Shown one piece after another: positions 31,118 to 48,201 of a DNA stretch of 64,000 nucleotides. Made by a program: the position numbers and the translations under genes. Source of the stretch: Shigella phage Sf13; sequence record MF158040. One strand, 5' to 3'. Position 1 is the stretch's first letter, and every line of letters starts with the position of its first letter. The notes beneath the pieces were generated by a model, which saw nothing but the letters and a program-made list of their open reading frames with translations, did not search any database and was not told the DNA's origin.

Positions 31118-31675
31118 TTATGCTGTTAAGTCGTTTATAACCGTTTCTGTTACGTTGCATTGCATGGTGTCAAAGATATCACAATATACATTGCTCATCC
31201 CATCACTACGTTGGACTATTTCTGCAATGTTGCGTAGTTCGTCTGGTACATATCCTAAATTTCTATTGTTTAGGTTAGGGACAAAGAAAGGCGCATACAT
31301 AGCATTAAATTCAGTTGTGTAAACCTTTTTAATCCATTCTTTATCGAAATATTCTGTAAAGCTTGCTACGTCGCTCATGTTCTCACAGCTCCAGTCATCT
31401 TGTAAATCATCTTCTGGAATATCCAGTTCCAAGATAACAAGCTTTTGTGACTTCATTTGATAGGCTGCTGTAATGCTTGCGCTATCAAGCGCGTTTCTAA
31501 TACCTTCATCTGTGATTTGTTCGTCATCCAGATTCTCTACATCATAGAACTTGTTAACAGGGTAGACGTAAAAACATCCATCCATATCAGAGCAATTCCA
31601 AGCTCCTGATGGTTTATCACCGCCATTGATAAGGTTTACAAAGTTTTCTTGTGTAGTACCATGAAAGCATTTCAT
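31118..31675 (-). CDS. hypothetical protein (185 aa)
   Basis: ORF track; ATG after conserved leader. Confidence 0.5.
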   Translation of the reverse strand: MKCFHGTTQENFVNLINGGDKPSGAWNCSDMDGCFYVYPVNKFYDVENLDDEQITDEGIRNALDSASITAAYQMKSQKLVILELDIPEDDLQDDWSCENMSDVASFTEYFDKEWIKKVYTTEFNAMYAPFFVPNLNNRNLGYVPDELRNIAEIVQRSDGMSNVYCDIFDTMQCNVTETVINDLTA

Positions 31676-35500: not shown

Positions 35501-35693
35501 ACTGGATTTATGAAGTCAACAAAATTTTTAAAAATATTTTCGATGCTTCGTGAATAGAACGCACGTATGCGGATACACTAAAACAGGAATTTAGTCAAGA
35601 ATTATTTTTGAGTTCTCTACAAATTTTTCTCTTGACTTTTGGGAGGAAGGGGATTAAGAGGGGATGGTGGGGCTGGTTTCCTACAGCTACCTA

Positions 35694-35885
35694 CCTGCAC
35701 AATTTGAAAATGAATTTTCCCTTTGGAGTCCAACTGCATCTGCACAGATTGAAAATGAAAAAGCTCTTTGGAGTCTAAACCTGCACAAATTTGAAATGAA
35801 TTTTCCCTTTGGAGTTCAGCTAAAGAAATCTGTCCAGAGTTCTATGCAACTATACCTGCACAAATTTAAAATGAAAAAGCCCTCC
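35694..35885. repeat. four imperfect ~40-bp direct repeats (CCTGCACAAATTTGAAAATGAA...TTTGGAGT)
   Basis: Units start near 35694, 35740, 35780, 35855; indels between units shift the frame of the overlapping plus ORF. Confidence 0.55.
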
Positions 35886-35946
35886 TTACCTGAGATTTTT
35901 AAACTCAAACTTTGGAGGGCTTGTCTATGTCTAGCTAGGTGACTTA

Positions 35947-36741
35947 TTAGTTACGTGCTTCAACATAGCTTACGTTTTCATGTGTGATATAATCTTCTGC
36001 AAACTCTTCTGTAGTAGCATTGATATATACACTTGCATCATCGCCAAACGTTACCGCTCTGTGGTGGTGGCCTTGTAACGGGTGGGTAACTTGAGCGTTA
36101 CTTCGATTGTACTTATCAACCGGAGGGTAACTGGTGTGTACCTTGCCATTACGCTTCACCTTGAGGGTAACTTTATCCTTGCCTACCACAGCAACACCAT
36201 CAAAGTATTGAGGCTCACTGAAGTTCTCCCAACCAGTAACAGGACTAGTCAACTGACTGTACATCTTATCTTCATAGACATACATATATACGTCAACATC
36301 TTTCATGGTCTGATTAATAATGGACAGCACAGCCATACTATCAAGACCACCAATCCCTGCACCAATCATAGGGAGTCCAACCTTCTTAAGCTGGTTTACT
36401 TTACAGTAGTTGTTAAGACGCTGTAAAGCTGCTTCTAAGGCATTGTATCGTGCATTTTTTCCAGTGATAACCTGAGTATAAAGGTTAGCAATTCGACCCT
36501 GCTTCAAACGTGCTACAGAGATGTTACCAAGCATTAGATTCTTAGGGTTATGGTTTTCACCACCTACTGTAGCATAAACTTCAGCGTCAGTTTCATAAGC
36601 TTTTGGGTAGCGTTTAGCAATTGTTGCTGCGATACCTGCACCCATCAAGTTCATGCAGTTACAACCGTGACCAATGATATCAAACTTCTTACCATCAAAG
36701 TCTTTAAAGATATCACCTTTAATAATTTTTACGATACCCAT
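35947..36741 (-). CDS. macro domain (ADP-ribose binding/processing) protein with C-terminal domain of unknown function
   Basis: Macro-like motifs IIKGDIF...GHGCNCMNLMGAGIAATIAKRYP ... KKVGLPMIGAGIGGLD; start set to ATG at M20 one nt after the zinc-ribbon gene stop. Confidence 0.55.
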   Translation of the reverse strand: MGIVKIIKGDIFKDFDGKKFDIIGHGCNCMNLMGAGIAATIAKRYPKAYETDAEVYATVGGENHNPKNLMLGNISVARLKQGRIANLYTQVITGKNARYNALEAALQRLNNYCKVNQLKKVGLPMIGAGIGGLDSMAVLSIINQTMKDVDVYMYVYEDKMYSQLTSPVTGWENFSEPQYFDGVAVVGKDKVTLKVKRNGKVHTSYPPVDKYNRSNAQVTHPLQGHHHRAVTFGDDASVYINATTEEFAEDYITHENVSYVEARN

Positions 36742-36742
36742 A

Positions 36743-36943
36743 TTAGTAATGCTCCCAACGTTCGTTATCTTCAGATGGTTTAACTCGGTTACCTTCATGG
36801 TCTACCCATAAAGCACCGCAACCTTCACAGATTACTGGCATTGCTGAACCAGCTTCAAACTCTGCCTTTGTAAAGAGACCTTTTAAGTCTCCTGTATCTT
36901 TTCCAAACATCTCAACAGAACACTTAGTGCAGAAATCAGCCAT
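36743..36943 (-). CDS. zinc-ribbon protein (66 aa; CxxC...CxxC)
   Basis: ORF track; Cys pairs FCTKC and CEGC; coupled to macro-domain gene. Confidence 0.5.
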   Translation of the reverse strand: MADFCTKCSVEMFGKDTGDLKGLFTKAEFEAGSAMPVICEGCGALWVDHEGNRVKPSEDNERWEHY

Positions 36944-37172
36944 TTGATATTACCTCTTGGAAGTATGTATCACCTTCATAAGAGTAATTACACTTAAACT
37001 CTTCTAAGCTTAATCTTGTAAGCAGAGGATTCAGGTAGTGTTTAAAATCCCCTATCTTGAAGTTGTAGTGAATCAAGGGGTTCATGAATGGTATTACCTC
37101 ATCCCGTCCAACAAATATAGCCCCTACTAACACTTGACGTGTAACTTTACTTCTTACCAGAATTGCTTTCAT
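36936..37172 (-). CDS. hypothetical protein (78 aa)
   Basis: ORF track. Confidence 0.45.
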   Translation of the reverse strand: MKAILVRSKVTRQVLVGAIFVGRDEVIPFMNPLIHYNFKIGDFKHYLNPLLTRLSLEEFKCNYSYEGDTYFQEVISNG

Positions 37173-37473
37173 ACATCACCTTTTCAGTTAGCTCAAACAG
37201 GTCAACATGTTCGATGCTTTCAATATGGATACCAACTTTTGCATAGCGTTCTTTAACATTCTCTGCATTAAGCCATATCAGACACCAATGATTCTCTATG
37301 GATTCTTCAAGCTTGTCAACACAATCTTTAAAAGATTTCATATCTCCACGAGTACCAATGAATGCAACAACCCCATAGAGAAACTCTTTACCACTGTGAC
37401 AGACTTGTGCTGTACCAATTTCCTTTTCACCGTCTGAGAAGACGGCTACATAATTCTTACCATCTAGTTGCAT
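37147..37473 (-). CDS. hypothetical protein (108 aa)
   Basis: ORF track ORF (GTG) trimmed to adjacent ATG with GAGGG RBS. Confidence 0.45.
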   Translation of the reverse strand: MQLDGKNYVAVFSDGEKEIGTAQVCHSGKEFLYGVVAFIGTRGDMKSFKDCVDKLEESIENHWCLIWLNAENVKERYAKVGIHIESIEHVDLFELTEKVMYESNSGKK

Positions 37474-37482
37474 CACTAACCC

Positions 37483-37752
37483 TCACTTCCTCGTTTTAAG
37501 GACTGCATAGATTTCTTTAGAATCTTCTCCGAACCATGTGTAGTGATTCTCGTTGATTTCAGGATGGTTGTCAACACGTATTTTGCAATCTCTTCCAACA
37601 TGCTTAAGTTGTGCAGAAACACCCTGCATAAAGATGTGACAAGTTACATCATCCATAACCGTTGGCATAATGTCAAATCTCATGTAAGTATTACTTGGTC
37701 TTGGTAACAGAAGATAACCTTCCACAAAAAATGTTTCATTCTTCTCTGTCAT
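37483..37752 (-). CDS. hypothetical protein (89 aa)
   Basis: ORF track; ATGA overlap with upstream gene. Confidence 0.45.
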   Translation of the reverse strand: MTEKNETFFVEGYLLLPRPSNTYMRFDIMPTVMDDVTCHIFMQGVSAQLKHVGRDCKIRVDNHPEINENHYTWFGEDSKEIYAVLKTRK

Positions 37753-38018
37753 TGCTGCTTATTCCCTAACAAAATCATATCAATCAAATTGTTTGCCTTG
37801 ATAGTACATTCATAGTAACCATCACGATAAAACTCAAGAGCACTTGCAAGGTCTGCACCTTTAGTACCTTTAACCTCATACCGTGCTTCTTCTTGAGTGT
37901 ACTTGTCACTCTCACTTACTTGGGAGTTTTTGAAGGTACTGTTCACTTTGTTCGTTGAACACCCTGACATAAGGCTCAGTAGCACAATCATTAATAAAGA
38001 CTGTCTTAGTTTTTTCAT
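37749..38018 (-). CDS. outer-membrane lipoprotein, o-spanin-like (Rz1-like)
   Basis: Signal peptide with lipobox LMSGC; start lies inside 3' end of the upstream TM protein gene in another frame. Confidence 0.45.
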   Translation of the reverse strand: MKKLRQSLLMIVLLSLMSGCSTNKVNSTFKNSQVSESDKYTQEEARYEVKGTKGADLASALEFYRDGYYECTIKANNLIDMILLGNKQQ

Positions 38019-38259
38019 AGTTCAATACCTCTTTGGTGTGTTTGTTTTTAGCAAGCACATCTTTCAAATCATTTTTGTAATTGGAGCTAAGATTTGATAA
38101 ACCCTCTTGATAAGCATCTTTAGCAACACTCACAAGTCTCTGGTTAGTTAACTCCTTTTCATTAACTTGGCTGGTCTTGTAAGTGTAACCTCCCCAAGCA
38201 CCAACACCTGTTAAGAAAATGATTACAAAAGCTGCTTGACAAAATTCTTTAAACGTCAT
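37912..38259 (-). CDS. inner-membrane protein, i-spanin-like (Rz-like)
   Basis: N-terminal TM segment FVIIFLTGVGAWGGYTY then charged helical region; AGGAG RBS; overlaps lipoprotein gene. Confidence 0.45.
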   Translation of the reverse strand: MTFKEFCQAAFVIIFLTGVGAWGGYTYKTSQVNEKELTNQRLVSVAKDAYQEGLSNLSSNYKNDLKDVLAKNKHTKEVLNYEKTKTVFINDCATEPYVRVFNEQSEQYLQKLPSK

Positions 38260-38276
38260 TTAACTTCTCCTAGAAA

Positions 38277-38299
38277 TGAAAAAGGCTCCCGAAGGAGCC
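38277..38299 (-). terminator. rho-independent terminator (minus strand)
   Basis: GGCTCCTTCGGGAGCC hairpin followed by TTTTTC on minus strand. Confidence 0.55.
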
Positions 38300-38311
38300 T
38301 CTATAATAACT

Positions 38312-38776
38312 TTAACCAAGAACTTTCGCAAGGACATTTGCTGCCATTGTTGAGGCTTTTGAAGCAGCAGCTACGCCAGCCTTAATGGTATTGTCCTTAA
38401 TCGCAGAAACCGTTGCAGTATCTGTGAAGAGGTAAGTGGTAGTTTGAGAACCACTTGTAAAGGAAAGCATAAGAGCAGTTTCCAGATTGAAAGAACGGTA
38501 AGGAGCACCGGATTGTACAATCCCTTTTGCACCTAACTCTGAAGCCATACCCATATCATAGATAGTCATCAGATTTTCTTTATGAGCAGTAGTTGAACCA
38601 ACACCCTTAACGTGTTTTGTGACATTCAACATTGCACGATACTCACGAATGTTACCATCAGCTTTCACGTTTACTGCACGAAAGATTTTACCATCGAAAT
38701 TACTTTTGATAATCTCACGAACTACCTGTGATTTGTTACCGGAAGCATCGATAGCTACTGTAATAATGTTTTGCAT
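38312..38776 (-). CDS. hypothetical protein (154 aa)
   Basis: ORF track; ATG start. Confidence 0.45.
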   Translation of the reverse strand: MQNIITVAIDASGNKSQVVREIIKSNFDGKIFRAVNVKADGNIREYRAMLNVTKHVKGVGSTTAHKENLMTIYDMGMASELGAKGIVQSGAPYRSFNLETALMLSFTSGSQTTTYLFTDTATVSAIKDNTIKAGVAAASKASTMAANVLAKVLG

Positions 38777-38787
38777 GGTTTACTCTC

Positions 38788-39483
38788 TCAGTTTTTAACA
38801 AGCATTGTTTTGATGTGTGGTAAGATTCTTTCAACCTTTGCCACGTTCTTCACTGTATCTTCTATAAAGCATACTACATCATAGTAGGGTAGAATGCAAG
38901 ACTGAAGCATACGAACTTTCAAACTTTCTGCACTAATCTCATTGTCACCAAATCCACGCATAAACAGTAGGAAATCACTGTCTACATTCTCATTCAGGAA
39001 AAGATGTGTGACAACTCTTTGTGATTCACCACGAGCAGTTAGGAATCCTATATCAGCATTTCTTGATATACCACACAGGATGTTAAAAACATATGTTGGT
39101 TTAGCTCTGCGAGAGTCTACCAAGTTAGTATATTGTGAGTAAGAACCATCATCTAACAGAGTTGCATTAAGTTTCTTGTCAAAGCTTGTAAGAACACCAT
39201 CAATGTCTGCTAAGACCATTTTACGTTTTTCTTCCAAGTTCTTTGCAACCAAGATAAGGCTGTTACGACCAACATATACAGTTTTACCTGTTAGCAAATC
39301 CTGACAAGGAATCTGTGTCTTTGTTGAGTGGAAGTCTTCAAAGCTACACACAACATTTCTTGCTGTATCTGCAAAGTCAGCTTTAGCAATATCTGACCAA
39401 CTTGCAGAACTGATATCTAAATCAAGTGGTTTAATATCATAAGCATGACACAGAACCATATCAAATTGTTTTGATTCGCTCAT
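38788..39483 (-). CDS. HAD-superfamily hydrolase candidate (nucleotidase/phosphatase-like)
   Basis: Motif VLADIDGVLT resembling HAD motif I (DxDGxT); otherwise unassigned. Confidence 0.35.
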   Translation of the reverse strand: MSESKQFDMVLCHAYDIKPLDLDISSASWSDIAKADFADTARNVVCSFEDFHSTKTQIPCQDLLTGKTVYVGRNSLILVAKNLEEKRKMVLADIDGVLTSFDKKLNATLLDDGSYSQYTNLVDSRRAKPTYVFNILCGISRNADIGFLTARGESQRVVTHLFLNENVDSDFLLFMRGFGDNEISAESLKVRMLQSCILPYYDVVCFIEDTVKNVAKVERILPHIKTMLVKN

Positions 39484-40009
39484 ATTTTACCTTTTTAATG
39501 TTTGTTGCAAACTCACATTGAGCCAGCAGTTTCATGTTATTGTACACATCTTGAGAGTATTGTCTAGCCTTTGGAATCTTGTATTTGTAACCAGCATTAT
39601 AAGAAGCTAGGACACGCTTCATAGAGTACTTTCCATCTGGGTTACCATGAACCTTAGTCCAGAATAATAGCTCCTTATGAGCCTCTTTCGCTGAGTAATG
39701 GAAGTCACTTACTAGCTTCTTCTTAGCAACCTTTGGAGATACCTTGTTACGCTTTACAACAGTCTTCAAGTGATTCTGGAAAACACCATAATCATGAGTC
39801 TTTTTATTTTCTAACATGACACCTAATTGTGACTCTTGTAAGGCTATAGCTGCTAAAGGGATTCCCCAACCTTTTCCCATCTGCCCTTCGCCATAGTTAT
39901 ATGCTTTTAACATATTAACTTTCTGGCTGATTGTAAGCTCTGGACAGTCAGATGCTGTAGCTAAATGTGCTGTAAAGAATAAGCACAAACCTAAAACAAA
40001 TTTCTTCAT
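39461..40009 (-). CDS. secreted lytic transglycosylase (SLT-domain) protein
   Basis: Signal peptide MKKFVLGLCLFFTAHLATAS; SLT-like motif AAIALQESQLG...YGVFQ; start set to M9 with AGGAG RBS. Confidence 0.45.
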   Translation of the reverse strand: MKKFVLGLCLFFTAHLATASDCPELTISQKVNMLKAYNYGEGQMGKGWGIPLAAIALQESQLGVMLENKKTHDYGVFQNHLKTVVKRNKVSPKVAKKKLVSDFHYSAKEAHKELLFWTKVHGNPDGKYSMKRVLASYNAGYKYKIPKARQYSQDVYNNMKLLAQCEFATNIKKVKYERIKTI

Positions 40010-40110
40010 TTGCACTCCTATTTTGTTAAACATGCAGACAATTATACACTAACCTGCACATTTTTCAAATAAAAAAGGCTGCCGAAGCAGCCCCTTTAGG
40101 AATTTACTTA

Positions 40111-41232
40111 TTAAACTTCACGTTTACGCTGAGAAATCAGTTCACCAGCAGTACCTACAACTACGTGGAGTGCTTCTGAACCATCCCACTCTTTGATGAC
40201 TTCACGGCGACTATTTACAATCGCTGCAACTTCATAGCGGGAAGCTCGCATTTTCATGTCGTTGTAGTCAGTTGGTACTGAAACAACATCACGAGGATGA
40301 ACACGAACTTTCAGGATAGTGTCACCAGAGAAGCTAGTTACATAATCCCAAGCACCAACGTGCAGACCCTGAGAGCAGGTTACATGACGGTTATTATCAA
40401 CCATCCAACGTGGCATCTCTACAATGTTACCCAAATCATTTGGAACTTTGCAGGTACGAGAGTCAAACAGTTTACCACCACGAGTTGTGACTTTCTTCCA
40501 GCCGATGATATAACCTTCTTCATCAATTTCAACATCAAGGTGTGATACAAAGCCCCAAAGTTGTTCTACAGAATCTTTTGATGGGTTTTCCATCAGTTTT
40601 TCGAAGAATGCAATCAGTCGAACAAAACCATTATCACCTTTCTTCATCATATCCAGAATACGGTCTACCAGAGTTGAGCGCATCTGAACAGCACCGTAAT
40701 ACAGGTTGTCACCTTTGATGGTTACAGCACCTTGAGTGAAGTTCTCAATAGACTTGCGAATGTTCATCAGTTCAAAAGCTTTCTTGTACTCACCTGAAAC
40801 AACAGCCATTACAATATCAGTGTAGTTAGGATGAGTTGACTCAACAATCTCAGACTCTGCACCGAAAGTCATGATAACAGAATCACCAGTAATCATGTAC
40901 TCAATCTGGCTGTTATTCTGCATTGCTTCATGCAGAGCATTTACAGGTTCTGCTTTGACTGCTTCTTTAACAGCTTTTGCAACAGGTTTCTGCTTAGATA
41001 CCTTCTTAGTCGCTTTAGCTTTCTTAGCACTCTTTGCAATATCTTTCAGAGTCTTTGCAGGTTTTGCTTTGGTTTTCCCTGACAGCAGTGTTGCTTCATG
41101 ACGCTCTACAGCACGACCTACCGAACGGGTTGAAGTGTTATACTTCAGAGCAATTGCAGTTTTGGTAAGTTTACCTTCTTTAACCAGTGCATAGATTTCT
41201 GCGTCGATTTGTGCTTTAGTCTTAGTAGTCAT
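40111..41232 (-). CDS. rIIB: rIIB-like protein
   Basis: Recalled similarity to T4 rIIB (LVDRILD, ENPS, GWKKV motifs); directly downstream of rIIA-like gene. Confidence 0.6.
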   Translation of the reverse strand: MTTKTKAQIDAEIYALVKEGKLTKTAIALKYNTSTRSVGRAVERHEATLLSGKTKAKPAKTLKDIAKSAKKAKATKKVSKQKPVAKAVKEAVKAEPVNALHEAMQNNSQIEYMITGDSVIMTFGAESEIVESTHPNYTDIVMAVVSGEYKKAFELMNIRKSIENFTQGAVTIKGDNLYYGAVQMRSTLVDRILDMMKKGDNGFVRLIAFFEKLMENPSKDSVEQLWGFVSHLDVEIDEEGYIIGWKKVTTRGGKLFDSRTCKVPNDLGNIVEMPRWMVDNNRHVTCSQGLHVGAWDYVTSFSGDTILKVRVHPRDVVSVPTDYNDMKMRASRYEVAAIVNSRREVIKEWDGSEALHVVVGTAGELISQRKREV

Positions 41233-41311
41233 TTCAATATCTCTCTTTGTTGTTTAAAATTACTTAGTGGTTCGTATTCTAAGGGGCTTTTCAGCCCCTG
41301 TCAAACTATTT

Positions 41312-43684
41312 TTAATCCCAGCATACAGTGTCTTCTGGAATGCTCTTAGTATCAAAACCTAAGAACTTACCAACTTCGACGGGTGATACTTTATTCCAAT
41401 CCAGATTAGAAAGCAAGAAGTTTTCTTTACGGCGTTTCTCAAAGTAATCTTTGAACTTACTTTCAAGACGCTTCTTAGCGTTATCCAGAACCTTTCTTGG
41501 CTTACAAGAACCTCTCATATTCCTACGAATGGTATCAAGAGTGCTGGTAATATCTTTGTAAGCAACTGGTGCAGCAGTATATGCCAAGCGTCCAAACATT
41601 GCTTCTATAGCCTCTTCATTCCCCTCTAAGAAAATAGTCTTCTTAAAATCTTTACTGTAAATGTGGCCTCTGGACTTACGCTTATCAGCAAACATAAAGT
41701 TTCGAGAAATCACATTACAATCAGTGATATCATGATTATTAGTCATATATTGGTGAGTCAAGTAACGGTGATACTCAATCCAATGAGTATTATCAATAAA
41801 ATCTTTCATCACTTGTTCATTGACTTCTGTCCAGTCTTCAGGAATCTTTTTCCAGTTGGCTTTACGGAAGACATAAACTGACTGTCCAGTTAACTCTGTC
41901 ATCAACGTTGCAGCACGTTCTGGTGAACATGAGAAGATTCCACCAATCACTTCATCACTCTGTGCTTTGATATACAGTTGTGGTTCTTCAATCTCATCAA
42001 AGTTCTCTTTAACCTCTGTATAGCGAATCATGTCAGTATTTGGACATATAAATGCTTTATACAGTTTTACAACACCACGTACAATAGTACGTTTTTCATA
42101 GTGGTGCTCTTTAGATGACATTGTATGCACACTTAACAGACTCTTGTCAAGCATATGCAAATCTACAAACTCATCAAATTGCTGCTGACTGCTGAACAAG
42201 AAAGCGATACCATTGTAGCGACGGAAGTTAGAGTCTTCCTGTTCACGGTCACGGCAAGCTCCACGGATAATCTGGTTTTTACCAGTTGTCTTCTCAGACC
42301 CGTTCTTGTTTCGACGGTCATTAATAAGGAACAAATAGTTGCTCAACTTATCTTTACTCATTGCACCAAAGATACTAAACATTGCTGCATCTTGTGAATA
42401 AGTTGCTGAAGTTGCTCGAATACGATTCTCCAGACTGCTGTACTTGTAGTATGCTACAGGTTCATACAGATTACCAATATTAGGAACTGGATTACCATCT
42501 TTGTCAAGCCGCAAGTTACCTGCATCATCTTTCAAGAATGACGGAGAACCATCTGCTTCAGTTAACTGACCACGACGGATACCTAACAGTTTTTGTTCAA
42601 GTTTTTTCAAGTTCTGGCCTTGCCATTCCAGAGAATCTTGGACGTGAATAAAGATTTCACGAGCCTCCTTCCTCATGGTATCATAGGCTTGAGCAGCATC
42701 AATCAGAGTTGGCTTGTTAGCAATCTCTTTTACCACATCTTCTACGATTGTCTTAGTGATTTTCTTCACAGCTTCAACAATCTTGGTCTTAGTGGTCTCA
42801 TTCATCTGCAATGCTTCACGAGATGCAGCAATAGCCACTGAACCAATTGGCATGTAGATGTTAACAAGGTCTACAGCACTACGGAAGAACTGAGGCAGAA
42901 TGCTTGTAAACTCTGAACCAAGCAACTCACCCATTTCAACAGGATAAGCAATATTACCCATGATTACATTGAAATGGACACTGTTACTATTTGAACGCCA
43001 GTTCTCTTTGTACTTCATTGCATCATAGACACCATCTTCACGAGAAATGGAAGTCATTGCTTCAAGAATGTCATAGTACTCAACATTACACTCTGGCTTA
43101 ACTTTAAAGTACGAGTATACATTGCTCGCTTCTTCATGAAACTTGTTGATACGGTTATCGGATACCGCTACTCGAACAGCTAAACCATTTGGCTCTGTAG
43201 TTGGGTTAGTAGTCAACTTAGTTACTTGAGGGATACCATTCTCAAGGTAAACTGAGTATTTGTTAACTACACCATCAACATAGCTTGATACAGTGAATGA
43301 CTGAGCAATTGCAAATGGTGACTTTGAACCGATACCCATAGCACCAATGTAGTCATTTGAATCGTTTTTTGTAGATTCTCCATAGGTCATGTAAAGTTTC
43401 ATAACTTTATCATGAGTCAGCCCTGTACCAAAGTCACGAACTTCAAAGAATGGCTCGAAACGAGTTGGTAAGTGAACCAAGAAAGGTTTATCAACGTTAC
43501 CAGAATCAATGTGAGCATCTACTGCGTTACATGACAATTCACGAATTACAGCACGTTCTTTATATGTGTAAACACCTGAGCTTAGAAGACTGAACATTTC
43601 AGGTGTCATCTTAATCTGAGCCTGAGAGGTTTCCAGTGTACTTGAGCTTTTAATTACCGTTGCGTGGTCATTTACCATGCGCAT
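41312..43684 (-). CDS. rIIA: rIIA-like protein (N-terminal GHKL-type ATPase fold)
   Basis: N-terminal motifs AVIRELSCNAVDAH, RDFGTGLT, GAMGIGSKSPF as in T4 rIIA; 790 aa. Confidence 0.65.
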   Translation of the reverse strand: MRMVNDHATVIKSSSTLETSQAQIKMTPEMFSLLSSGVYTYKERAVIRELSCNAVDAHIDSGNVDKPFLVHLPTRFEPFFEVRDFGTGLTHDKVMKLYMTYGESTKNDSNDYIGAMGIGSKSPFAIAQSFTVSSYVDGVVNKYSVYLENGIPQVTKLTTNPTTEPNGLAVRVAVSDNRINKFHEEASNVYSYFKVKPECNVEYYDILEAMTSISREDGVYDAMKYKENWRSNSNSVHFNVIMGNIAYPVEMGELLGSEFTSILPQFFRSAVDLVNIYMPIGSVAIAASREALQMNETTKTKIVEAVKKITKTIVEDVVKEIANKPTLIDAAQAYDTMRKEAREIFIHVQDSLEWQGQNLKKLEQKLLGIRRGQLTEADGSPSFLKDDAGNLRLDKDGNPVPNIGNLYEPVAYYKYSSLENRIRATSATYSQDAAMFSIFGAMSKDKLSNYLFLINDRRNKNGSEKTTGKNQIIRGACRDREQEDSNFRRYNGIAFLFSSQQQFDEFVDLHMLDKSLLSVHTMSSKEHHYEKRTIVRGVVKLYKAFICPNTDMIRYTEVKENFDEIEEPQLYIKAQSDEVIGGIFSCSPERAATLMTELTGQSVYVFRKANWKKIPEDWTEVNEQVMKDFIDNTHWIEYHRYLTHQYMTNNHDITDCNVISRNFMFADKRKSRGHIYSKDFKKTIFLEGNEEAIEAMFGRLAYTAAPVAYKDITSTLDTIRRNMRGSCKPRKVLDNAKKRLESKFKDYFEKRRKENFLLSNLDWNKVSPVEVGKFLGFDTKSIPEDTVCWD

Positions 43685-43746
43685 AAGAATATCTCCTTAG
43701 TTGTCGATGTGGCAAACTATATAATTTTATAGATGCCACTGTCAAG

Positions 43747-43926
43747 TTACTTTTTAAATTTCTTTCCAGTTCCATTACAGTAAGGGCAACAATGACCTAT
43801 ACCAACTACCCCAGAACCTTCACACTCATCACAAGGTTCGGTCTCTGAGAAGTACTTGCATAGTAACACTGCAAAAGCAACTATACAACCGAGTGAAAGA
43901 ACAATTTCTAACCAATAACCTTGCAT
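43747..43926 (-). CDS. small membrane-anchored protein with two CxxCxGxG (DnaJ-type) zinc-finger motifs (59 aa), not in ORF track
   Basis: ATG with AGGAG RBS 9 nt upstream; N-terminal TM segment; CDECEGSG and CPYCNGTG motifs. Confidence 0.4.
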   Translation of the reverse strand: MQGYWLEIVLSLGCIVAFAVLLCKYFSETEPCDECEGSGVVGIGHCCPYCNGTGKKFKK

Positions 43927-44243
43927 ACCTTATCTCCTATAGTTCTGAATAGGACAAAACTCCTGTCATGGACAATACTCGAAGATACTGCAAAACTATT
44001 CTCAAGTATCTTTTTGTTTGGATTGTAAAATTCTTCTTGAAACAAATCAAGAGCTTCTTGATGGTTCTGTGGAAGACCTTTGATATAAACCTTCAAAGTA
44101 ACCGTTGTATAAATCTCAGAAGCTAACTCTGATTGTGCTGCTTGAAACAGTTCATTGATAAACTTATGACCATCTTCATGGCGCTTGATGTTTTCCCAAC
44201 GCTCTTCAATGATTAAATTAACATTCATCTGTTTAATTTTCAT
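43908..44243 (-). CDS. hypothetical protein (111 aa)
   Basis: ORF track ORF (GTG) trimmed to ATG at M5 with GGAGA RBS; preceded by terminator. Confidence 0.45.
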   Translation of the reverse strand: MKIKQMNVNLIIEERWENIKRHEDGHKFINELFQAAQSELASEIYTTVTLKVYIKGLPQNHQEALDLFQEEFYNPNKKILENSFAVSSSIVHDRSFVLFRTIGDKVCKVIG

Positions 44244-44260
44244 AGTAATCTCCACAAATT

Positions 44261-44281
44261 AAAAAGGCTCCCGTAGGAGCC
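44261..44281 (-). terminator. rho-independent terminator (minus strand)
   Basis: GGCTCCTACGGGAGCC hairpin followed by TTTTT on minus strand. Confidence 0.55.
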
Positions 44282-44296
44282 TCTTATCATACTGTT

Positions 44297-46114
44297 TTAA
44301 AGTTGCTTGTCAATAGTATTTCGAACATCACGCAGGTTAATGTAACCATAAGGTTGCGAGTTGCTAAATACCAGTTTCAAAGCACTATGACAATTGTCAA
44401 TTGCACCTTCAAACTCTGCAAAGCCAAAACCATCTACAGCTACCAGCTTGTCACCATCCCACATAGGGACAACTCCACCAAAAGCAGACTTCTTAAGACC
44501 GCTGTCAGTTTTAGGGTCTTTAGCCAGCATAATTTCTTGACCATCCATCTGTGCAAGAGTTGCTTTAACAGCAAATGCAAAGGTGTCACGAGTCAGGTAC
44601 TGATAGGTGTATGAGCCTACACCAAACACTACGTTAGAACTTGCAAAACCTTTATCAGCAAGACGTGACAGAATCTCATTAGCCCTTTCCAGAGTGATAG
44701 AATCACCGTAGATTAGTCCAATGTGCTCATCCAGTACTTTGTACCCTTTGGAGTTAATAGTGCCACCAAAGATGTTATACAGCGTGTGGATAGCTCCGTC
44801 AATTTCTGCTGTCAGCATACGCTTCACAGTAAACTGTCCAGTTTTCTGAGCGGTAATCAGGTTGATTGTATCAGCAGATTCAAAATCTTCTTTATCAACA
44901 ACCATCTCATAACCTTCAGAGATTAGCCAAGCAGAGAACCCAAAGCCAATATCAGACATTTCACAATTCAAGATTGTGTCATGCAGATGTGTATTGTTCG
45001 GTGCAAGCTCTTTCATGTGCTTATAGAACATTGACTTAGCAGTTTCCCATTCAATGGCTTTGTAACCTGTGACAATGTGAACAGGGTCTCCAGAGTCTGG
45101 ACGGATTACCAACTTACCATCACGATTCAGGATTACATTACGTAGCTCTGGCAGAATCTGTGTAACAGTACGCCAGAAGTTGTAAGTATCTGATACGGCA
45201 CTTGCAATACCAGTTGGGTAAACTTCTGTCAGAAGGCGATGGAAAGTTTCTACCTCACCACGCCAACGCATTGCATCAAGTAAGTTGTCAGAATGCGATA
45301 GATGCCAATCACTTACCTCTTTGTTAAGACTGTTCCATGAGATGTTTGCACACATCACAGAGTGCTCAGTAGCTGGGACAGAGTTACCAATCTCACCTAC
45401 ATTCATAAACTGACCATATGCACGTTTAGCTGTATATACAGCAGGGAAGCTGTCAGTACCTTTAAAACTTGTCAGGTGACCTACTGCGTTAAACGCATCA
45501 TCTGTGAAGCCAGACATACCACGCATTGCAAAGTCATGACACTGCCAAGGTAAATGGAAGTCGTTGTCACAGGTCTTGTCAGCCCATTGCTTACAAATAC
45601 GTTTGTAGTGCAGTGCAATTGTTGCAATCGTACAAGCTTTCCAGATTTCAGCAGAGAAAGCATCTTCAAGGTAACCAGCTACCCAATGGAATCCCTCTAC
45701 AGTGTTTTTGAATACAATCATCGGGACACGCATAGGGACAATTGTACCTTCCTCTACAGAGTAGACTTCAACAGGTAGGTAGCCCAAGTCATGAAGTTCT
45801 TCCCAATGTTGACGACCAATAGCATCTGCACCGAGAACACCATTCATGATTTCCAAGATTTCGTCAATGGCTTCTTTCTTATCACGTTCAAAGAACGTTG
45901 CATTCCAGTGGTCTACCAGATAGTCTTTTACAAAACGCTGAATACCAAAGGCTACAACACCATCAATCTCTAACGGAGAGTTAAACCATTTGTCTCCACG
46001 AGGTGTTAAGTTCAGCATAAGATACTGTGTAGCATCTGGATACTGGTAGAAATGGCCAGATTTGTAGGCATCTGCATTAAGTGCTGCTGGTACTGCATAA
46101 AGTGATTTAGTCAT
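44297..46114 (-). CDS. nicotinamide phosphoribosyltransferase-like protein (NadV/NAMPT family; Namat-like)
   Basis: 605 aa; NAMPT-family size and recalled sequence character; adjacent to Prs-like gene. Confidence 0.55.
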   Translation of the reverse strand: MTKSLYAVPAALNADAYKSGHFYQYPDATQYLMLNLTPRGDKWFNSPLEIDGVVAFGIQRFVKDYLVDHWNATFFERDKKEAIDEILEIMNGVLGADAIGRQHWEELHDLGYLPVEVYSVEEGTIVPMRVPMIVFKNTVEGFHWVAGYLEDAFSAEIWKACTIATIALHYKRICKQWADKTCDNDFHLPWQCHDFAMRGMSGFTDDAFNAVGHLTSFKGTDSFPAVYTAKRAYGQFMNVGEIGNSVPATEHSVMCANISWNSLNKEVSDWHLSHSDNLLDAMRWRGEVETFHRLLTEVYPTGIASAVSDTYNFWRTVTQILPELRNVILNRDGKLVIRPDSGDPVHIVTGYKAIEWETAKSMFYKHMKELAPNNTHLHDTILNCEMSDIGFGFSAWLISEGYEMVVDKEDFESADTINLITAQKTGQFTVKRMLTAEIDGAIHTLYNIFGGTINSKGYKVLDEHIGLIYGDSITLERANEILSRLADKGFASSNVVFGVGSYTYQYLTRDTFAFAVKATLAQMDGQEIMLAKDPKTDSGLKKSAFGGVVPMWDGDKLVAVDGFGFAEFEGAIDNCHSALKLVFSNSQPYGYINLRDVRNTIDKQL

Positions 46115-46158
46115 CTTTTTATCTCTCTCAAAGTGGGGCTTTTCAGCCCCTAAAGTTG

Positions 46159-47040
46159 TTATTCAATATTTGCTACTGTCACTTGTGAGAAGTGGGAAAG
46201 ACCACGGTCTTTTTCATCCCCTAGTGAGTCTGTAGTGTAGATATGGTCGATGCCATTGTCAAGAAGATTTTCAACACCTTTAGAGAAAATCCCATGAGTA
46301 ACATAAAGCTCTACACGTTCTGCTCCAGCTTCACGAAGATACTTTGCAGCCTCGATAAAGGTTCGACCACCATCACAGATATCATCCAGAATCATAACAG
46401 TCTTACCTGTTAAGTCTACATCATCAAGGATTCGCATACCAGTGATTTCACCAGTTTTCAGGTTTCGTACCTTTGCCATTGTGATATAAGGTTTCTCAAC
46501 CTCTTTAGCAGCCTCTTCAGTCTTCTTAGCTGCACCTGCATCTGGAGCCACTAAGTAATCAATGCGTGGGTCACTTGCAAAGTGGACTGCTGCCTCTTTT
46601 TGAGGGATGTTGTAGAAGCACTTAAACAAGTTCTCTGCTACATTACTGTGAGTATCCAGAGCACATACTGCATCAAACCCCATAGCATTTACAAGATTTG
46701 CAAAGACTTTAAGTGCTGCTGAATCGCCTTTAAACATGTGACGGTCATAGCGAGCATTTGGTAAGAATCCAAAAAGAACAGTTTTCATGGTTGCTTTCTG
46801 AGGAATCAAACGGTCAATAGCCTCTTTAGCCATAGCCAATGCAAAGAGTGTGTCTTTGTCATAACCTTGTACAGTGAATATTACGTTTTCAATCTTACCA
46901 GCAGCATGTTCAGCAAAGTCTACTAAGTCTTCTGAGAAGTTACCACCAATCTCCCCAGAAGGGAACTGGATAATGTTGAAGGTCTCTTGATGAGAACCTT
47001 TGGAATTTGAATTAAGTAGAACTCGAATAGTAGTTTTCAT
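46159..47040 (-). CDS. ribose-phosphate pyrophosphokinase-like protein (Prs family; Adps-like)
   Basis: PRPP-synthetase-like motifs (LVAPDAGAAKK; MILDDICDGGRTF); track TTG start trimmed to ATG at M7 with GAGAGAG RBS. Confidence 0.55.
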   Translation of the reverse strand: MKTTIRVLLNSNSKGSHQETFNIIQFPSGEIGGNFSEDLVDFAEHAAGKIENVIFTVQGYDKDTLFALAMAKEAIDRLIPQKATMKTVLFGFLPNARYDRHMFKGDSAALKVFANLVNAMGFDAVCALDTHSNVAENLFKCFYNIPQKEAAVHFASDPRIDYLVAPDAGAAKKTEEAAKEVEKPYITMAKVRNLKTGEITGMRILDDVDLTGKTVMILDDICDGGRTFIEAAKYLREAGAERVELYVTHGIFSKGVENLLDNGIDHIYTTDSLGDEKDRGLSHFSQVTVANIE

Positions 47041-47050
47041 AATATCTCTC

Positions 47051-47356
47051 TCAGTCAAAAGTTACAAATGTTACAGCCATAGCTGATTTACATTTCTTTG
47101 GGTCTACAATGTGGTAGATAACTGAACAGTTTCCTGTTCCGTCTGGTACTGGTTTTGTCCAAGTACGTTCAATATTTGGCTCTCCAAACTCTTTATAGAA
47201 TCCGTTGGAGTAGTGGTCTATCATCTCAATAGCAAGTGCATCTGGGACGTGACCACGTATCATATACATCTCACTACCATTTCCAGCTTCGCTAATAAGC
47301 TCTTTGATATCCCATTGTTCTCTAGCCATGATAAGTTGCCTCATAAACTGTCTCAA
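47051..47356 (-). CDS. hypothetical protein (101 aa)
   Basis: ORF track. Confidence 0.45.
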   Translation of the reverse strand: MRQFMRQLIMAREQWDIKELISEAGNGSEMYMIRGHVPDALAIEMIDHYSNGFYKEFGEPNIERTWTKPVPDGTGNCSVIYHIVDPKKCKSAMAVTFVTFD

Positions 47357-47837
47357 GCTTCAACAAGAGAGATATTGCCAGAAATGCGTATTCCCTGTCA
47401 AGCATTGGTGGCATATTATTTATAAGATATGCTTCCTGTTCTTCCCAAGTCATCTTAGGAGCTTCTGGAAGCTTCTCTCCTTGCTTCTGGTTATCTTCTT
47501 GAGTCTGGATAAACCAGTTCGAGCAATGGTGCTCTCCACCTTTTGTCACGGGCTTATGGTGGCCTAACGTGAAAGCTTTCTTTCCAGAATATCTACAAAG
47601 CTTATTAAGGGTTGCAATAGTATTCTTGACAACACAGTATTCATAGAGGTTGTCAATAGTGTAATGAGGGTAGTACTGGAACAAGGCACTATCACGGAAC
47701 TTACCACGGTTCCAAAGCACCATGTGATTAGAATTTGAAGGGTCATACTGATGTGACTCGATGAACTCTTGACGCTCATCAAAATCAAGACGAAGAACAG
47801 ACATTGCAGCAGCACGTTTCAGATTTGAATGGTACAT
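47322..47837 (-). CDS. HNH endonuclease (free-standing homing endonuclease candidate)
   Basis: HNH-like motif LGHHKPVTKGGEHHCSNW; own RBS after terminator. Confidence 0.5.
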   Translation of the reverse strand: MYHSNLKRAAAMSVLRLDFDERQEFIESHQYDPSNSNHMVLWNRGKFRDSALFQYYPHYTIDNLYEYCVVKNTIATLNKLCRYSGKKAFTLGHHKPVTKGGEHHCSNWFIQTQEDNQKQGEKLPEAPKMTWEEQEAYLINNMPPMLDREYAFLAISLLLKLETVYEATYHG

Positions 47838-47889: not shown

Positions 47890-48201
47890 TTACTGAGCTA
47901 TTTTCAAGACTTTTAAGAAACCTTCCTCGCCAATTGCATCATAAACGTTTTCAGTTGGCTTGATAAGGTTGTTCAAGCATACAATCTTCTTACGCTTCTT
48001 GTCATAAGTAAGCTTCAGTTGTTTCAACTCTTTGTTATCTTCAGGGTGCTCATTGTACATCTTCACAGCTTCTTTGAAGCTAATGTAGCCACCACCTAAA
48101 GTAAGGAAACCTGTACCACAATAGTGGGAGTTGTGTTTATCAGCCATAAACTGGCACAGGATAGAAATCTGAATTTTACGAGTGTTATAAATCTTTTCCA
48201 T
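47890..48201 (-). CDS. hypothetical protein (103 aa)
   Basis: ORF track. Confidence 0.45.
   Translation of the reverse strand: MEKIYNTRKIQISILCQFMADKHNSHYCGTGFLTLGGGYISFKEAVKMYNEHPEDNKELKQLKLTYDKKRKKIVCLNNLIKPTENVYDAIGEEGFLKVLKIAQ

What the first reader, a model, noticed from the sequence alone, without database searches (positions are those of the whole stretch)
35947..47040. Clustering of candidate counter-defence genes in one 11 kb stretch
The macro-domain gene, the rIIA/rIIB pair (which protect T4 from Rex-type exclusion) and the NAD+ salvage pair all lie within about 11 kb on the same strand. They are interleaved with unknown genes: a HAD-like hydrolase, a secreted SLT-domain protein, a small zinc-finger membrane protein and several orphans. 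The unknowns are the most likely place for an undescribed counter-defence or host-manipulation function.
Basis: inference. Interest (0 to 1): 0.55.

Follow-up and report, generated by a model that had tools for sequence, protein, structure and literature searches.

The report
Phage accessory block of counter-defence genes
This 11 kb stretch is the dispensable accessory block of a Felix-O1-type Shigella phage; knockouts in a related phage already show that several of its genes disarm bacterial immunity, so it is mostly known biology, with one open lead (the macro-domain enzyme) and six small genes still unexplained.

Summary
Sixteen minus-strand genes lie at 35947-47040. The window is 99.5% identical to Shigella phage Sf15 (Ounavirinae, Mooglevirus).

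- The "NAD+ salvage pair" is NARP1 (Adps + Namat). It rebuilds NAD+ from ADP-ribose and nicotinamide, and Osterman 2024 already lists the Sf15 genes.
- Coliphage Bas63 has the same gene order. Its knockouts show Adps/Namat counter Sir2-HerA, the Ec86 retron and hhe. rIIA/rIIB counter QatABCD. The gene two upstream of Adps (window 47322-47837) counters the Ec67 retron.
- The macro protein is a Poa1p/TARG1/DarG-clade enzyme. Two phage homologues have tested roles: Adpp (an ADPR-1''-phosphatase that lets NARP1 beat aRES) and T4 Tk.4/AdfM (anti-DarTG2). I could not separate these roles. Here the gene lies 13 genes from NARP1, outside the ±2-gene rule that defined NARP1-AP.
- Two "orphans" are a spanin pair. 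The HAD protein is a kinase-less PNKP-type phosphatase, the SLT protein is a secreted transglycosylase, and the 154-aa protein is a WYL/Sm-like barrel.
- Six small ORFs are lineage-specific and unexplained.

The block is several transcription units, not an operon. Outside Ounavirinae, only the macro-NARP1 link recurs consistently.

The parts
35947..36741 (-). Macro-domain protein (264 aa from the ATG at 36741; the longest ORF runs to 36798). An N-terminal Poa1p/TARG1/DarG-clade macrodomain is followed by a beta-rich C-terminal domain of about 100 aa found only in Ounavirinae-type homologues.
36743..36943 (-). 66-aa ORF with two CxxC pairs (zinc-ribbon-like). Function unknown.
   Evidence: PHROG 2210, unknown function. 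Present in Bas63 (74% identity), with no match in Kolesnikvirus.
36936..37172 (-). 78-aa ORF. Function unknown.
   Evidence: PHROG 6082, unknown function. Only 37 residues align with Bas63, and there is no match in Kolesnikvirus.
37147..37476 (-). 109-aa ORF. Function unknown.
   Evidence: PHROG 4453, unknown function. 57% identity to Bas63, no match in Kolesnikvirus.
37483..37752 (-). 89-aa ORF. Function unknown.
   Evidence: PHROG 4391, unknown function. 75% identity to Bas63, no match in Kolesnikvirus.
37749..38018 (-). o-spanin (outer-membrane lipoprotein; signal sequence ending LMSG|C). It overlaps the i-spanin gene.
   Evidence: The lipobox is visible in the translation. Annotated as o-spanin in Sf17, Sf18 and Bas63.
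37912..38259 (-). i-spanin (Rz-like, with an N-terminal membrane anchor).
   Evidence: PHROG 1152 Rz-like spanin, E=6.8e-38.
38281..38302 (-). Intrinsic-terminator-like hairpin plus T run, downstream of the 154-aa gene.
   Evidence: Consensus scan: 9-bp stem with 5 GC pairs. A pattern match only.
38312..38776 (-). 154-aa protein: a small Sm/SH3/WYL-like beta-barrel with a long C-terminal helix. It is the most conserved unknown in the block.
38788..39483 (-). PNKP-type HAD phosphatase domain (about residues 85-231; motifs DIDGV, T, K and ED) behind an unknown N-terminal domain of about 80 aa. There is no kinase domain.
   Evidence: PHROG 3970/415/505 'polynucleotide kinase', matching only the phosphatase part. 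The window protein has no Pfam hit, but its 39%-identical homologue P0049 passes Pfam HAD_PNKP (33.6 bits against a 27.6-bit cut-off).
39461..40033 (-). Secreted lytic-transglycosylase-like protein. It has a signal peptide and the three SLT motifs (ES, GVFQ, SYNAGY).
   Evidence: Pfam SLT E=0.002, 18.1 bits, below the 21.3-bit cut-off. The motifs are read directly from the translation. The main endolysin is elsewhere in Bas63 (bas63_0123).
40111..41232 (-). rIIB homologue.
   Evidence: PHROG 609 E=6e-85. 39% identity, E=5e-61, to T4-type RB14 rIIB. The Bas63 orthologue g85 (76% identity) is needed against QatABCD.
41312..43684 (-). rIIA homologue with an N-terminal GHKL-type ATPase fold.
   Evidence: PHROG 612 E=3e-184 and Pfam HATPase_c_3. 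29% identity, E=3e-40, to RB14 rIIA. The Bas63 orthologue g84 (63% identity) is needed against QatABCD.
43747..43926 (-). 59-aa protein: an N-terminal membrane anchor plus two CxxCxGxG (DnaJ-type) zinc-finger motifs. Function unknown.
   Evidence: Weak Pfam DnaJ_CXXCXGXG match, E=0.004. PHROG 3931, unknown function. No match in Kolesnikvirus.
43908..44255 (-). 115-aa ORF of unknown function, in the variable slot between Namat and rIIA.
   Evidence: PHROG 4262, unknown function. The slot holds different small genes in Sf17, Bas63 and Kolesnikvirus.
44262..44285 (-). Intrinsic-terminator-like hairpin immediately after the Namat stop codon. A sigma70-like promoter match (44313-44286) overlaps it.
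   Evidence: Consensus scan: 10-bp stem with 5 GC pairs, and a promoter matching 11 of 12 positions. Pattern matches only.
44297..46114 (-). Namat (nicotinamide ADPR-transferase), the second enzyme of NARP1. It has two insertions (about residues 258-286 and 352-439) relative to the solved Namat structures.
   Evidence: 100% identical to the Sf15 protein, which is listed as Adps-associated in Osterman 2024. 76% identity to Bas63 g80. The catalytic His (Gary H243) is conserved as H251. PDB 9w5w E=3e-125 and 9ke8 E=1e-99.
46159..47040 (-). Adps (ADPR-pyrophosphate synthetase, PRPP-synthetase fold), the first enzyme of NARP1.
   Evidence: Pfam Pribosyl_synth and Pribosyltran. 81% identity to Bas63 g79. 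The Sf15 protein is listed in the Osterman 2024 supplement. The catalytic Lys (Gary K192) is conserved.
47322..47837 (-). 171-aa protein just outside the finding, with an HNH-like motif (GHHKPVTKGGEHH...N). It is the orthologue of Bas63 g77, a validated counter of the Ec67 retron.
   Evidence: 77% identity to Bas63 g77. Deleting g77 lowers plating 10-fold on Ec67 retron cells. Weak PHROG HNH hits, E=2.6e-5.

Best explanation
The stretch is the conserved, dispensable accessory block of an Ounavirinae phage. It is a run of separately transcribed, sigma70-promoter-type units, and it holds at least three counter-defence modules that work by different mechanisms.

1. NARP1. Adps uses ATP to pyrophosphorylate ADP-ribose to ADPR-PP. 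Namat joins ADPR-PP to nicotinamide to give NAD+. This restores the NAD+ pool after Sir2-, TIR- or SEFIR-type effectors have cleaved it. The mechanism was shown for homologues, and the phenotype was shown for the Bas63 orthologues.

2. rIIA/rIIB. These neutralise abortive-infection systems thought to act on the membrane: RexAB for T4 and QatABCD for Bas63. The phenotype is shown in orthologues; the mechanism is unknown.

3. The macro protein. I infer that it hydrolyses the substituent on C1'' of ADP-ribose. Its most likely role is removing the phosphate from ADPR-1''-phosphate, the product of RES-type NAD+ phosphorylases such as aRES, so that NARP1 has its substrate. That would make a 'split' NARP1-AP pathway. 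It may also, or instead, strip ADP-ribose from DarT2-modified thymidines, as proposed for T4 AdfM.

The spanin pair, the secreted transglycosylase, the PNKP-type phosphatase and the WYL-like protein are conserved backbone genes. Six small ORFs sit in slots where genes turn over between genera.

The co-location reflects a shared home in the non-essential region, not one operon.
For: - Identity. The stretch is 99.5% identical to Sf15 and Namat is 100% identical. Sf15 Adps and Namat are catalogued as NARP1.
- NARP1 biochemistry, and the Bas63 deletion phenotype.
- Bas63 has the same gene order, with protein identities of 54-88%.
- Catalytic residues are conserved: the Adps Lys, the Namat His and the macro His.
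- rIIA/rIIB knockouts lose 1e4-1e5 in plating on QatABCD, and g77 counters the Ec67 retron.
- The whole 46-66 kb region of Bas63 is non-essential on four laboratory hosts.
- The macro-NARP1 link recurs in independent gene arrangements. 14 of 67 non-Ounavirinae Namat loci have a macro within 10 kb. 20 of 78 macro loci have a Namat-like gene within 10 kb. NARP1-linked macros fall in at least 8 separate clades of the family tree.
- Promoter- and terminator-like sites split the block into at least 5 units.
- The backbone is kept in Kolesnikvirus, while the six small ORFs are absent there.
Against: - The macro gene is 13 genes (7.6 kb) from Namat and behind two terminator-like sites, so it does not meet the operon criterion (±2 genes) that defined NARP1-AP.
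- It is as close to T4 Tk.4/AdfM, which acts in a phage without NARP1 (36% identity, same motifs), as to any Adpp. The tree does not resolve its position.
- The family occurs in 2776 phage records. Many are T4-like, a group whose member T4 lacks NARP1.
- No enzyme assay or knockout exists for the Ounavirinae macro.
- Promoters and terminators are consensus matches only.
- The clustering statistic within one genome is weak (P about 0.03-0.1).
- rII lay near NARP1 in 1 of 67 other loci.
Confidence: 0.8

Rival explanations
1. The macro protein works independently of NARP1 as an AdfM-like anti-DarT2 factor. It would remove ADP-ribose from thymidines that the DarT2 toxin places on phage DNA. On this reading its nearness to NARP1 is inherited synteny only.
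Against: The DarG profile also matches validated or NARP1-adjacent Adpp proteins (34.9-48.9 bits), and every score is far below the 250-bit cut-off. The positions of the TARG1 catalytic residues K84 and D125 hold Q and G here, although Tk.4 also has Q. The Ounavirinae clade does not group with the T4 clade. The phage carries NARP1, which gives an Adpp activity an obvious use. AdfM's biochemistry has not been shown either.
Confidence: 0.35
2. The stretch is a functionally integrated counter-defence island, and most of its unknown genes are themselves undescribed counter-defence factors.
For: Five validated counters lie within nine consecutive Bas63 genes, g77-g85. The whole region is dispensable in laboratory hosts. 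The six small ORFs sit in slots that turn over between genera, which is typical of arms-race genes.
Against: Two of the unknowns are spanins. The others with a recognisable fold look like cell-wall or nucleic-acid-end enzymes. The block has several promoter- and terminator-like boundaries. None of the unknowns accompanies NARP1 in 67 other lineages, and only SLT-like matches (10 loci, positions not checked) turned up near the 78 other macro genes. The text of the Bas63 screen reports no phenotype for them. No aRad1 homologue is present, and there are no significant PADLOC or NCBIfam hits.
Confidence: 0.25
3. The macro and the PNKP-type phosphatase belong to an RNA-repair or RNA-end-healing route rather than to NAD+ reconstitution. 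A Tpt1-like enzyme would remove 2'-phosphates using NAD+ and produce Appr>p. Its breakdown product, Appr-1''-p, would be cleared by the macro, as Poa1p does in yeast tRNA splicing.
For: Poa1p is the best sequence match in the PDB. A PNKP-type phosphatase lies in the same block. The PhageMaP authors report slight structural similarity of Bas63 gp107 to the NAD-binding domain of RNA 2'-phosphotransferase. Its window orthologue, 31118-31675, begins MKCFHGT.
Against: The gp107 orthologue has no Pfam or PDB sequence match. No polynucleotide kinase domain was found in the HAD protein, and I did not search the genome for an RNA ligase. The phosphatase is not linked to macro genes in other lineages.
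Confidence: 0.1
4. The Prs-like and Nampt-like pair performs classical NAD+ salvage: PRPP synthesis, then nicotinamide plus PRPP to give NMN, which host enzymes finish. This is what the first reader and the GenBank annotations imply.
For: The Pfam domains are those of Prs and Nampt. Purified Namat can make NMN from PRPP when ADPR-PP is absent.
Against: Bas63 still overcomes Sir2-HerA in a host lacking pncC and nadR. The homologous Adps gave no product in the assay for PRPP-synthetase activity but pyrophosphorylates ADPR. Namat prefers ADPR-PP. The Sf15 proteins are classified as Adps and Namat.
Confidence: 0.04

Closest known systems
NARP1 (Adps + Namat) of coliphage Bas63 and Bacillus phage SPbetaL1 (Osterman et al. 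2024, bioRxiv 10.1101/2024.02.11.579819)
   Same: Adjacent genes on the same strand, a Prs-like gene followed by a Nampt-like gene. 81% and 76% identity to Bas63 g79 and g80. The catalytic Lys and His are conserved. The Sf15 proteins (Namat 100% identical to the window's) are listed in that paper's tables.
   Different: Nothing essential. Namat carries two insertions (about 29 and 88 aa) relative to the solved Namat structures. I could not map the selectivity-clamp residues.
NARP1-AP (Adps-Adpp-Namat) of Vibrio phage Gary (Osterman et al. 2026, bioRxiv 10.64898/2026.01.28.702374)
   Same: A Poa1p-like macrodomain encoded in a NARP1 phage. 31% identity to the validated Adpp. The His mutated in that study (H24A) is conserved. 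The host range includes enterobacteria, from which aRES was cloned.
   Different: The macro gene is 13 genes (7.6 kb) from Namat, in another predicted transcription unit. It has an extra C-terminal beta-domain of about 100 aa. No Escherichia, Salmonella or Shigella phage appears in that paper's table. The activity is untested.
T4 Tk.4 / AdfM, anti-DarTG2 macrodomain (HIDEN-SEQ preprint 10.1101/2025.11.20.689424)
   Same: Same macrodomain clade and the same motifs (HGCNC, NLYTQ, IGAGIG). 36% identity to the T4-type Tk.4 of RB14. A single-domain phage enzyme in a dispensable early region.
   Different: T4 has no NARP1. Tk.4 lacks the C-terminal domain. The Ounavirinae clade does not group with the T4 clade in the tree.
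T4 rIIA/rIIB (RexAB exclusion) and Bas63 g84/g85 (QatABCD; PhageMaP, PMC11482910)
   Same: Adjacent rIIA-rIIB genes, homologous to the T4 proteins, and dispensable without a defence system.
   Different: Only 29% (rIIA, N-terminal half) and 39% (rIIB) identity to the T4-type proteins. Each gene has its own promoter-like site. Activity against Rex is untested for this lineage.
Bacterial DarG antitoxin and human TARG1
   Different: There is no DarT-binding C-terminal domain. The profile score is 54.8 bits against a 250-bit cut-off. The positions of TARG1 K84 and D125 hold Q and G.

Membership tests
NARP1 | Adjacent Prs-like (PF14572) and Nampt-like (PF04095, PF18127) genes on the same strand | tested here: met
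   The genes are 44 nt apart on the minus strand.
NARP1 | Orthology to the operon shown genetically to counter NAD+ depletion (Bas63 g79-g80) | tested here: met
   81% and 76% identity with the same flanking genes. The Sf15 proteins are listed in the Osterman 2024 tables.
NARP1 | Catalytic residues: Adps Lys (SPbetaL1 K162 / Gary K192) and Namat His (Gary H243) | tested here: met
   K196 in the 299-aa ORF numbering. H251 in the ATEHSVM motif. The mutants are named.
NARP1 | Namat selectivity clamp (aromatic residues of the clamp helix, F392/Y396 in SPbetaL1; PMC12774641) | tested here: inconclusive
   The alignment to 9ke8 was obtained, but chain numbering could not be reconciled with the published residue numbers.
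NARP1 | ADPR-PP synthesis and NAD+ formation from ADPR-PP plus nicotinamide | not testable with these tools
   Needs an enzyme assay.
NARP1-AP (with the Adpp phosphatase) | Poa1p-like macrodomain with the catalytic His (Gary H24) | tested here: met
NARP1-AP (with the Adpp phosphatase) | Macro gene within two genes of Adps/Namat (the operon criterion of the defining study) | tested here: not met
   13 genes (7.6 kb) intervene. The criterion is quoted. Terminator-like sites lie in between.
NARP1-AP (with the Adpp phosphatase) | ADPR-1''-phosphate phosphatase activity and rescue from aRES | not testable with these tools
   Needs an assay or a knockout.
AdfM / DarG-type DNA ADP-ribosylglycohydrolase | Macrodomain structurally similar to the DarG2 macrodomain | tested here: met
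AdfM / DarG-type DNA ADP-ribosylglycohydrolase | Catalytic Lys at the position of TARG1 K84 / DarG K80 (from the published literature on those enzymes) | tested here: not met
   Q at that position. T4-type Tk.4 also has Q, so this argues against DarG membership but not against an AdfM-like role.
DarG antitoxin (full length) | C-terminal DarT-binding domain and the NCBIfam equivalog score | tested here: not met
   The match covers profile positions 2-153 of 338 only, at 54.8 bits against a 250-bit cut-off.
rIIA/rIIB | Sequence homology to the T4-type proteins, and adjacent genes | tested here: met
rIIA/rIIB | Required for growth on Rex+ or QatABCD+ hosts | not testable with these tools
   Shown for the Bas63 orthologues and for T4.
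Two-component spanin | An i-spanin with an N-terminal membrane anchor, plus an overlapping o-spanin gene with a lipobox Cys | tested here: met
PNKP-type HAD phosphatase | Pfam HAD_PNKP above the gathering score, and DxDxT-type motifs | tested here: inconclusive
   The window protein has no Pfam hit, but a 39%-identical homologue passes. The motifs DIDGV and ED are visible in the sequence. There is no kinase domain.
SLT lytic transglycosylase | Pfam SLT above the gathering score, and the catalytic ES motif | tested here: inconclusive
   18.1 bits against a 21.3-bit cut-off. The ES, GVFQ and SYNAGY motifs are present in the translation.

The most novel reading that the evidence does not exclude
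Ounavirinae (about 250 sequenced phages, including Bas63 and the Shigella Sf13-19 group) run a 'split' NARP1-AP pathway that the operon-based survey missed. On this reading the distal macro protein, with its extra C-terminal beta-domain, dephosphorylates ADPR-1''-phosphate to feed NARP1. The same C1''-hydrolase could also erase DarT2 marks on DNA. One enzyme would then serve two counter-defence routes, and the true share of NARP1 phages equipped against RES-type NAD+ phosphorylases would be well above the reported 15%.
Probability: 0.3. Interest if true: 0.5.

Novelty: new member of a known kind. Interest (0 to 1): 0.3.

Why it matters
The main content is already explained. NARP1 and rII are validated counter-defences in an orthologous phage, so the finding adds little there.

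The useful residue is practical:
- GenBank labels on this phage group ('nicotinamide phosphoribosyltransferase', 'ribose-phosphate pyrophosphokinase', 'phosphatase', 'polynucleotide kinase') hide the real functions.
- The macro gene is a ready test of whether NARP1-AP can work with unlinked genes, and whether one macrodomain counters both aRES and DarTG2.
- Six lineage-specific small ORFs in defined turnover slots form a short candidate list for anti-defence screens in phages that are being considered for Shigella and E. coli therapy.

Tried and rejected
- aRad1 (aRES inhibitor): tblastn of two published sequences against the window gave a best E of 0.64, so there is no homologue.
- Sequence searches of the PDB for the HAD, 154-aa, SLT and 185-aa proteins gave nothing significant. 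The Ika4/Ika8 match of the 154-aa protein had no matched stretch passing the threshold on its own; I treated it as a compositional artefact.
- PADLOC and NCBIfam scans of the ten unknowns gave only the non-discriminating DarG hit, plus E of about 0.01 noise for KwaA, SduA and RtpA.
- I tried to separate Adpp from AdfM by motifs, identity and a neighbour-joining tree of 96 macrodomains. The tree is star-like and the question stays unresolved.
- I tried to obtain a DarG sequence from plasmids. No DarG-annotated hit came back.
- The Namat selectivity-clamp residues could not be mapped, because the numbering does not match.
- The afdb50 fold library was unavailable, so the macro C-terminal domain was never searched on its own.
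- Per-gene PhageMaP scores for the unknown ORFs could not be checked, because no supplementary files are held.

Full report
**What the window is.** The 11.1 kb stretch is 99.5% identical to Shigella phage Sf15 and 96-98% identical to other Mooglevirus phages (Ounavirinae, the Felix O1 group). About 250 further Felix-O1-type records match at 60-80%. The Nampt-like protein is 100% identical to that of Sf15. The minus strand carries 16 closely packed or overlapping ORFs between 35947 and 47040.

**Gene content.** In order along the minus strand, from high to low coordinates:
- Prs-like, 46159-47040
- Nampt-like, 44297-46114
- a 115-aa ORF
- a 59-aa membrane-anchored CxxCxGxG zinc-finger protein
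- rIIA, 41312-43684
- rIIB, 40111-41232
- a signal-peptide SLT-like protein, 39461-40033
- a HAD protein, 38788-39483
- a 154-aa protein, 38312-38776
- an overlapping i-/o-spanin pair, 37912-38259 and 37749-38018
- four small ORFs of 89, 109, 78 and 66 aa
- the macro-domain protein, 35947-36741

**The NAD+ pair is NARP1.** Osterman et al. began with exactly this operon in the Felixounavirus Bas63 (genes 79-80, same Pfam families). Deleting it made Bas63 sensitive to Sir2-HerA. The effect did not need the host enzymes PncC or NadR. The Prs-like enzyme (Adps) pyrophosphorylates ADP-ribose to ADPR-PP. The Nampt-like enzyme (Namat) joins ADPR-PP and nicotinamide to make NAD+. Their supplementary tables list the Sf15 genes as Adps and Adps-associated Namat. 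The window proteins are 81% and 76% identical to Bas63 g79 and g80. They keep the catalytic Lys and His that were mutated in later work. 'NAD+ salvage' is therefore the wrong mechanism, but 'counter-defence' is right and already published.

**A direct experimental test already exists in an orthologous phage.** Bas63 has the same order: Adps79-Namat80-81-82-83-rIIA84-rIIB85-SLT86-HAD87-88-spanins89/90-91-92-93-94-macro95. PhageMaP made genome-wide Bas63 knockouts and challenged them with 12 defence systems.
- g79 and g80 are needed against Sir2-HerA (1e4-1e6 loss of plating), the Ec86 retron and hhe.
- g84 and g85 (rIIA/rIIB) are needed against QatABCD (1e4-1e5 loss).
- g77 is needed against the Ec67 retron (10-fold loss).

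The window orthologue of g77 is the 171-aa gene at 47322-47837, just outside the finding (77% identity). It looks HNH-like to me, whereas the paper calls it GIY-YIG. The whole 46-66 kb region of Bas63 is non-essential on four laboratory hosts. The paper's text reports nothing for g81-g83 or g86-g95, and its supplementary tables are not held.

rIIA and rIIB are true but distant homologues of the T4-type proteins: 29% identity (E=3e-40) and 39% identity (E=5e-61). That is far from the '>80%' stated in that paper. In T-even phages rII counters RexAB, and rIIB also triggers a CARD-gasdermin system.

**The macro protein.**
- By sequence, its best solved relatives are yeast Poa1p (an ADPR-1''-phosphate phosphatase) and then TARG1.
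- The positions of the TARG1 catalytic residues K84 and D125 hold Q and G.

Two phage homologues have tested roles.
- Adpp. This is a macro gene within two genes of NARP1 in 15% of NARP1 phages. It converts the aRES product ADPR-1''-phosphate back to ADP-ribose, so NARP1 can work ('NARP1-AP'). The window protein is 31% identical to the validated Adpp of Vibrio phage Gary and keeps the His mutated there (H24A).
- T4 Tk.4, renamed AdfM. Its knockout makes T4 sensitive to DarTG2. The T4-type Tk.4 of RB14 is 36% identical to the window protein and shares the same HGCNC, NLYTQ and IGAGIG motifs.

As a control, I scored the validated Gary Adpp, two NARP1-adjacent Adpp homologues and Tk.4 against the DarG profile. 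All matched at 31-49 bits, against 54.8 bits for the window protein and a 250-bit cut-off. The DarG hit is therefore uninformative. A neighbour-joining tree of 96 family members is star-like. NARP1-linked macros fall in at least eight clades, T4-type AdfM forms its own clade, and the Ounavirinae clade branches deep without a clear sister. I cannot decide between the two roles. Because both reactions cleave a substituent at C1'' of ADP-ribose, one enzyme might do both; that is inference.

The Ounavirinae proteins also carry a beta-rich C-terminal domain of about 100 aa that the Adpp proteins and Tk.4 in the alignments lack. Osterman's table of NARP1-linked macros lists no Escherichia, Salmonella or Shigella phage, as expected from the ±2-gene rule. 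Here 13 genes (7.6 kb) separate the macro gene from Namat.

**Is the linkage more than chance?**
- Within this genome, three module midpoints within 9.3 kb of 88.5 kb gives P of about 0.03 (3f^2). P is about 0.1 if placement is limited to the non-structural half.
- Across Ounavirinae the order is conserved as far as the Erwinia phage genus Kolesnikvirus. The backbone there is g171, Adps, Namat, rIIA, rIIB, SLT, HAD, the 154-aa gene, the spanins and the macro gene, at 25-57% identity. These genomes are collinear throughout, so this conservation shows inheritance, not coupling.
- I collected 80 IMG/VR loci around Namat homologues. Of the 67 outside Ounavirinae, 64 had Adps nearby and 14 had a macro gene within 10 kb, at -0.4, +3.3 to +5.2 or -9.3 kb. 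One had rIIA/rIIB, and none had any of the other genes.
- I collected 80 loci around macro homologues. Of the 78 outside Ounavirinae, 20 had a Namat-like gene within 10 kb, 10 had rII, and 11 had the T4 tk/vs.1/regB context.

The macro-NARP1 association therefore recurs in several arrangements. A macro-rII association appears in some roughly 75-100 kb contigs, which may be distant relatives. Apart from unexamined SLT-like matches in 10 of the macro loci, the unknown genes are confined to this subfamily.

**Transcription.** Consensus scans found 66 promoter-like sites against 42.5 ± 6.9 expected. The four best (11 of 12 positions) sit just upstream of the 115-aa gene, rIIA, rIIB and the SLT gene. 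Terminator-like hairpins follow Namat (44285-44262), the 154-aa gene (38302-38281) and the gene at 47890. These are pattern matches only. They argue for at least five units and put the macro gene outside the NARP1 operon.

**The other unknowns.**
- HAD protein. It has DIDGV, T, K and ED motifs. It matches only the phosphatase half of phage 'polynucleotide kinase' families. A 39%-identical homologue passes Pfam HAD_PNKP. It has no kinase domain, and its N-terminal 80 residues are unknown.
- SLT protein. It has a signal peptide and intact ES, GVFQ and SYNAGY motifs, but falls below the Pfam cut-off. The endolysin is elsewhere in Bas63.
- Six small ORFs (66, 78, 109, 89, 59 and 115 aa). They have no informative match in any library and no match in Kolesnikvirus. 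They occupy two slots where gene content differs between genera. That pattern fits, but does not show, arms-race functions. No aRad1 homologue is present.

**Verdict.** What is new is modest. The Ounavirinae macro protein is a candidate distal Adpp and/or AdfM that operon-based surveys did not count, and there is a short list of lineage-specific ORFs to test.

Noticed in passing
window 35693-35896: Four copies of a 43-nt direct repeat (ACCTGCACAA.TTGAAAATGAA...CTTTGGAGT; 63-88% identity to the reference copy) fill the roughly 500-nt gap downstream of the macro gene. Bas63 annotates two tiny opposite-strand ORFs in the equivalent gap.
   Followed up: partly
window 44297-46114 (Namat residues about 258-286 and 352-439): Namat is 605 aa, against about 495 aa for the solved Namat structures (9w5w, 9ke8). 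The two insertions do not align to those structures. Bas63 shares the larger one, and Vibrio phage Gary has part of it.
   Followed up: partly
window 31118-31675 (-): A 185-aa ORF beginning MKCFHGT is the orthologue of Bas63 gp107. The PhageMaP authors liken gp107 to the NAD-binding domain of RNA 2'-phosphotransferase and find it more important on strain S17-1. It has no Pfam or PDB sequence match. It could be another NAD/ADP-ribose-handling gene 4.3 kb from the macro gene.
   Followed up: partly
window 47322-47837 (-): This gene is the orthologue (77% identity) of Bas63 g77, a validated counter of the Ec67 retron. The published label is GIY-YIG, but the sequence shows an HNH-like GHHKPVTKGGEHH...N motif and weak PHROG HNH hits.
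   Followed up: partly
window 44262-44313 (-): A sigma70-like promoter match (11 of 12 positions) overlaps the 3' end of Namat. Its predicted start falls inside the terminator-like hairpin that follows Namat, so the hairpin could stop upstream transcripts while being incomplete in transcripts started there.
   Followed up: no
window 37749-38259 (-) compared with Bas63 bas63_0123: The spanin pair sits in the dispensable early-type block next to counter-defence genes, about 14 kb from the endolysin gene in Bas63. A second, secreted muralytic-like protein (SLT) lies 1.2 kb away.
   Followed up: no
L091/L092, L095, L101, L106, L125 (IMG/VR contigs of about 85-102 kb): The closest non-Ounavirinae macro homologues (36-42% identity) have rIIA/rIIB within 1-10 kb but no Namat within 10 kb. 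This hints at an older macro-rII neighbourhood in related myoviruses.
   Followed up: no
window 47890-48201 (-): This 103-aa protein matches Pfam DUF7390 (E=1e-16) and is annotated as a putative homing endonuclease in Sf17 and Sf18. A terminator-like hairpin follows it at 47877-47856.
   Followed up: no
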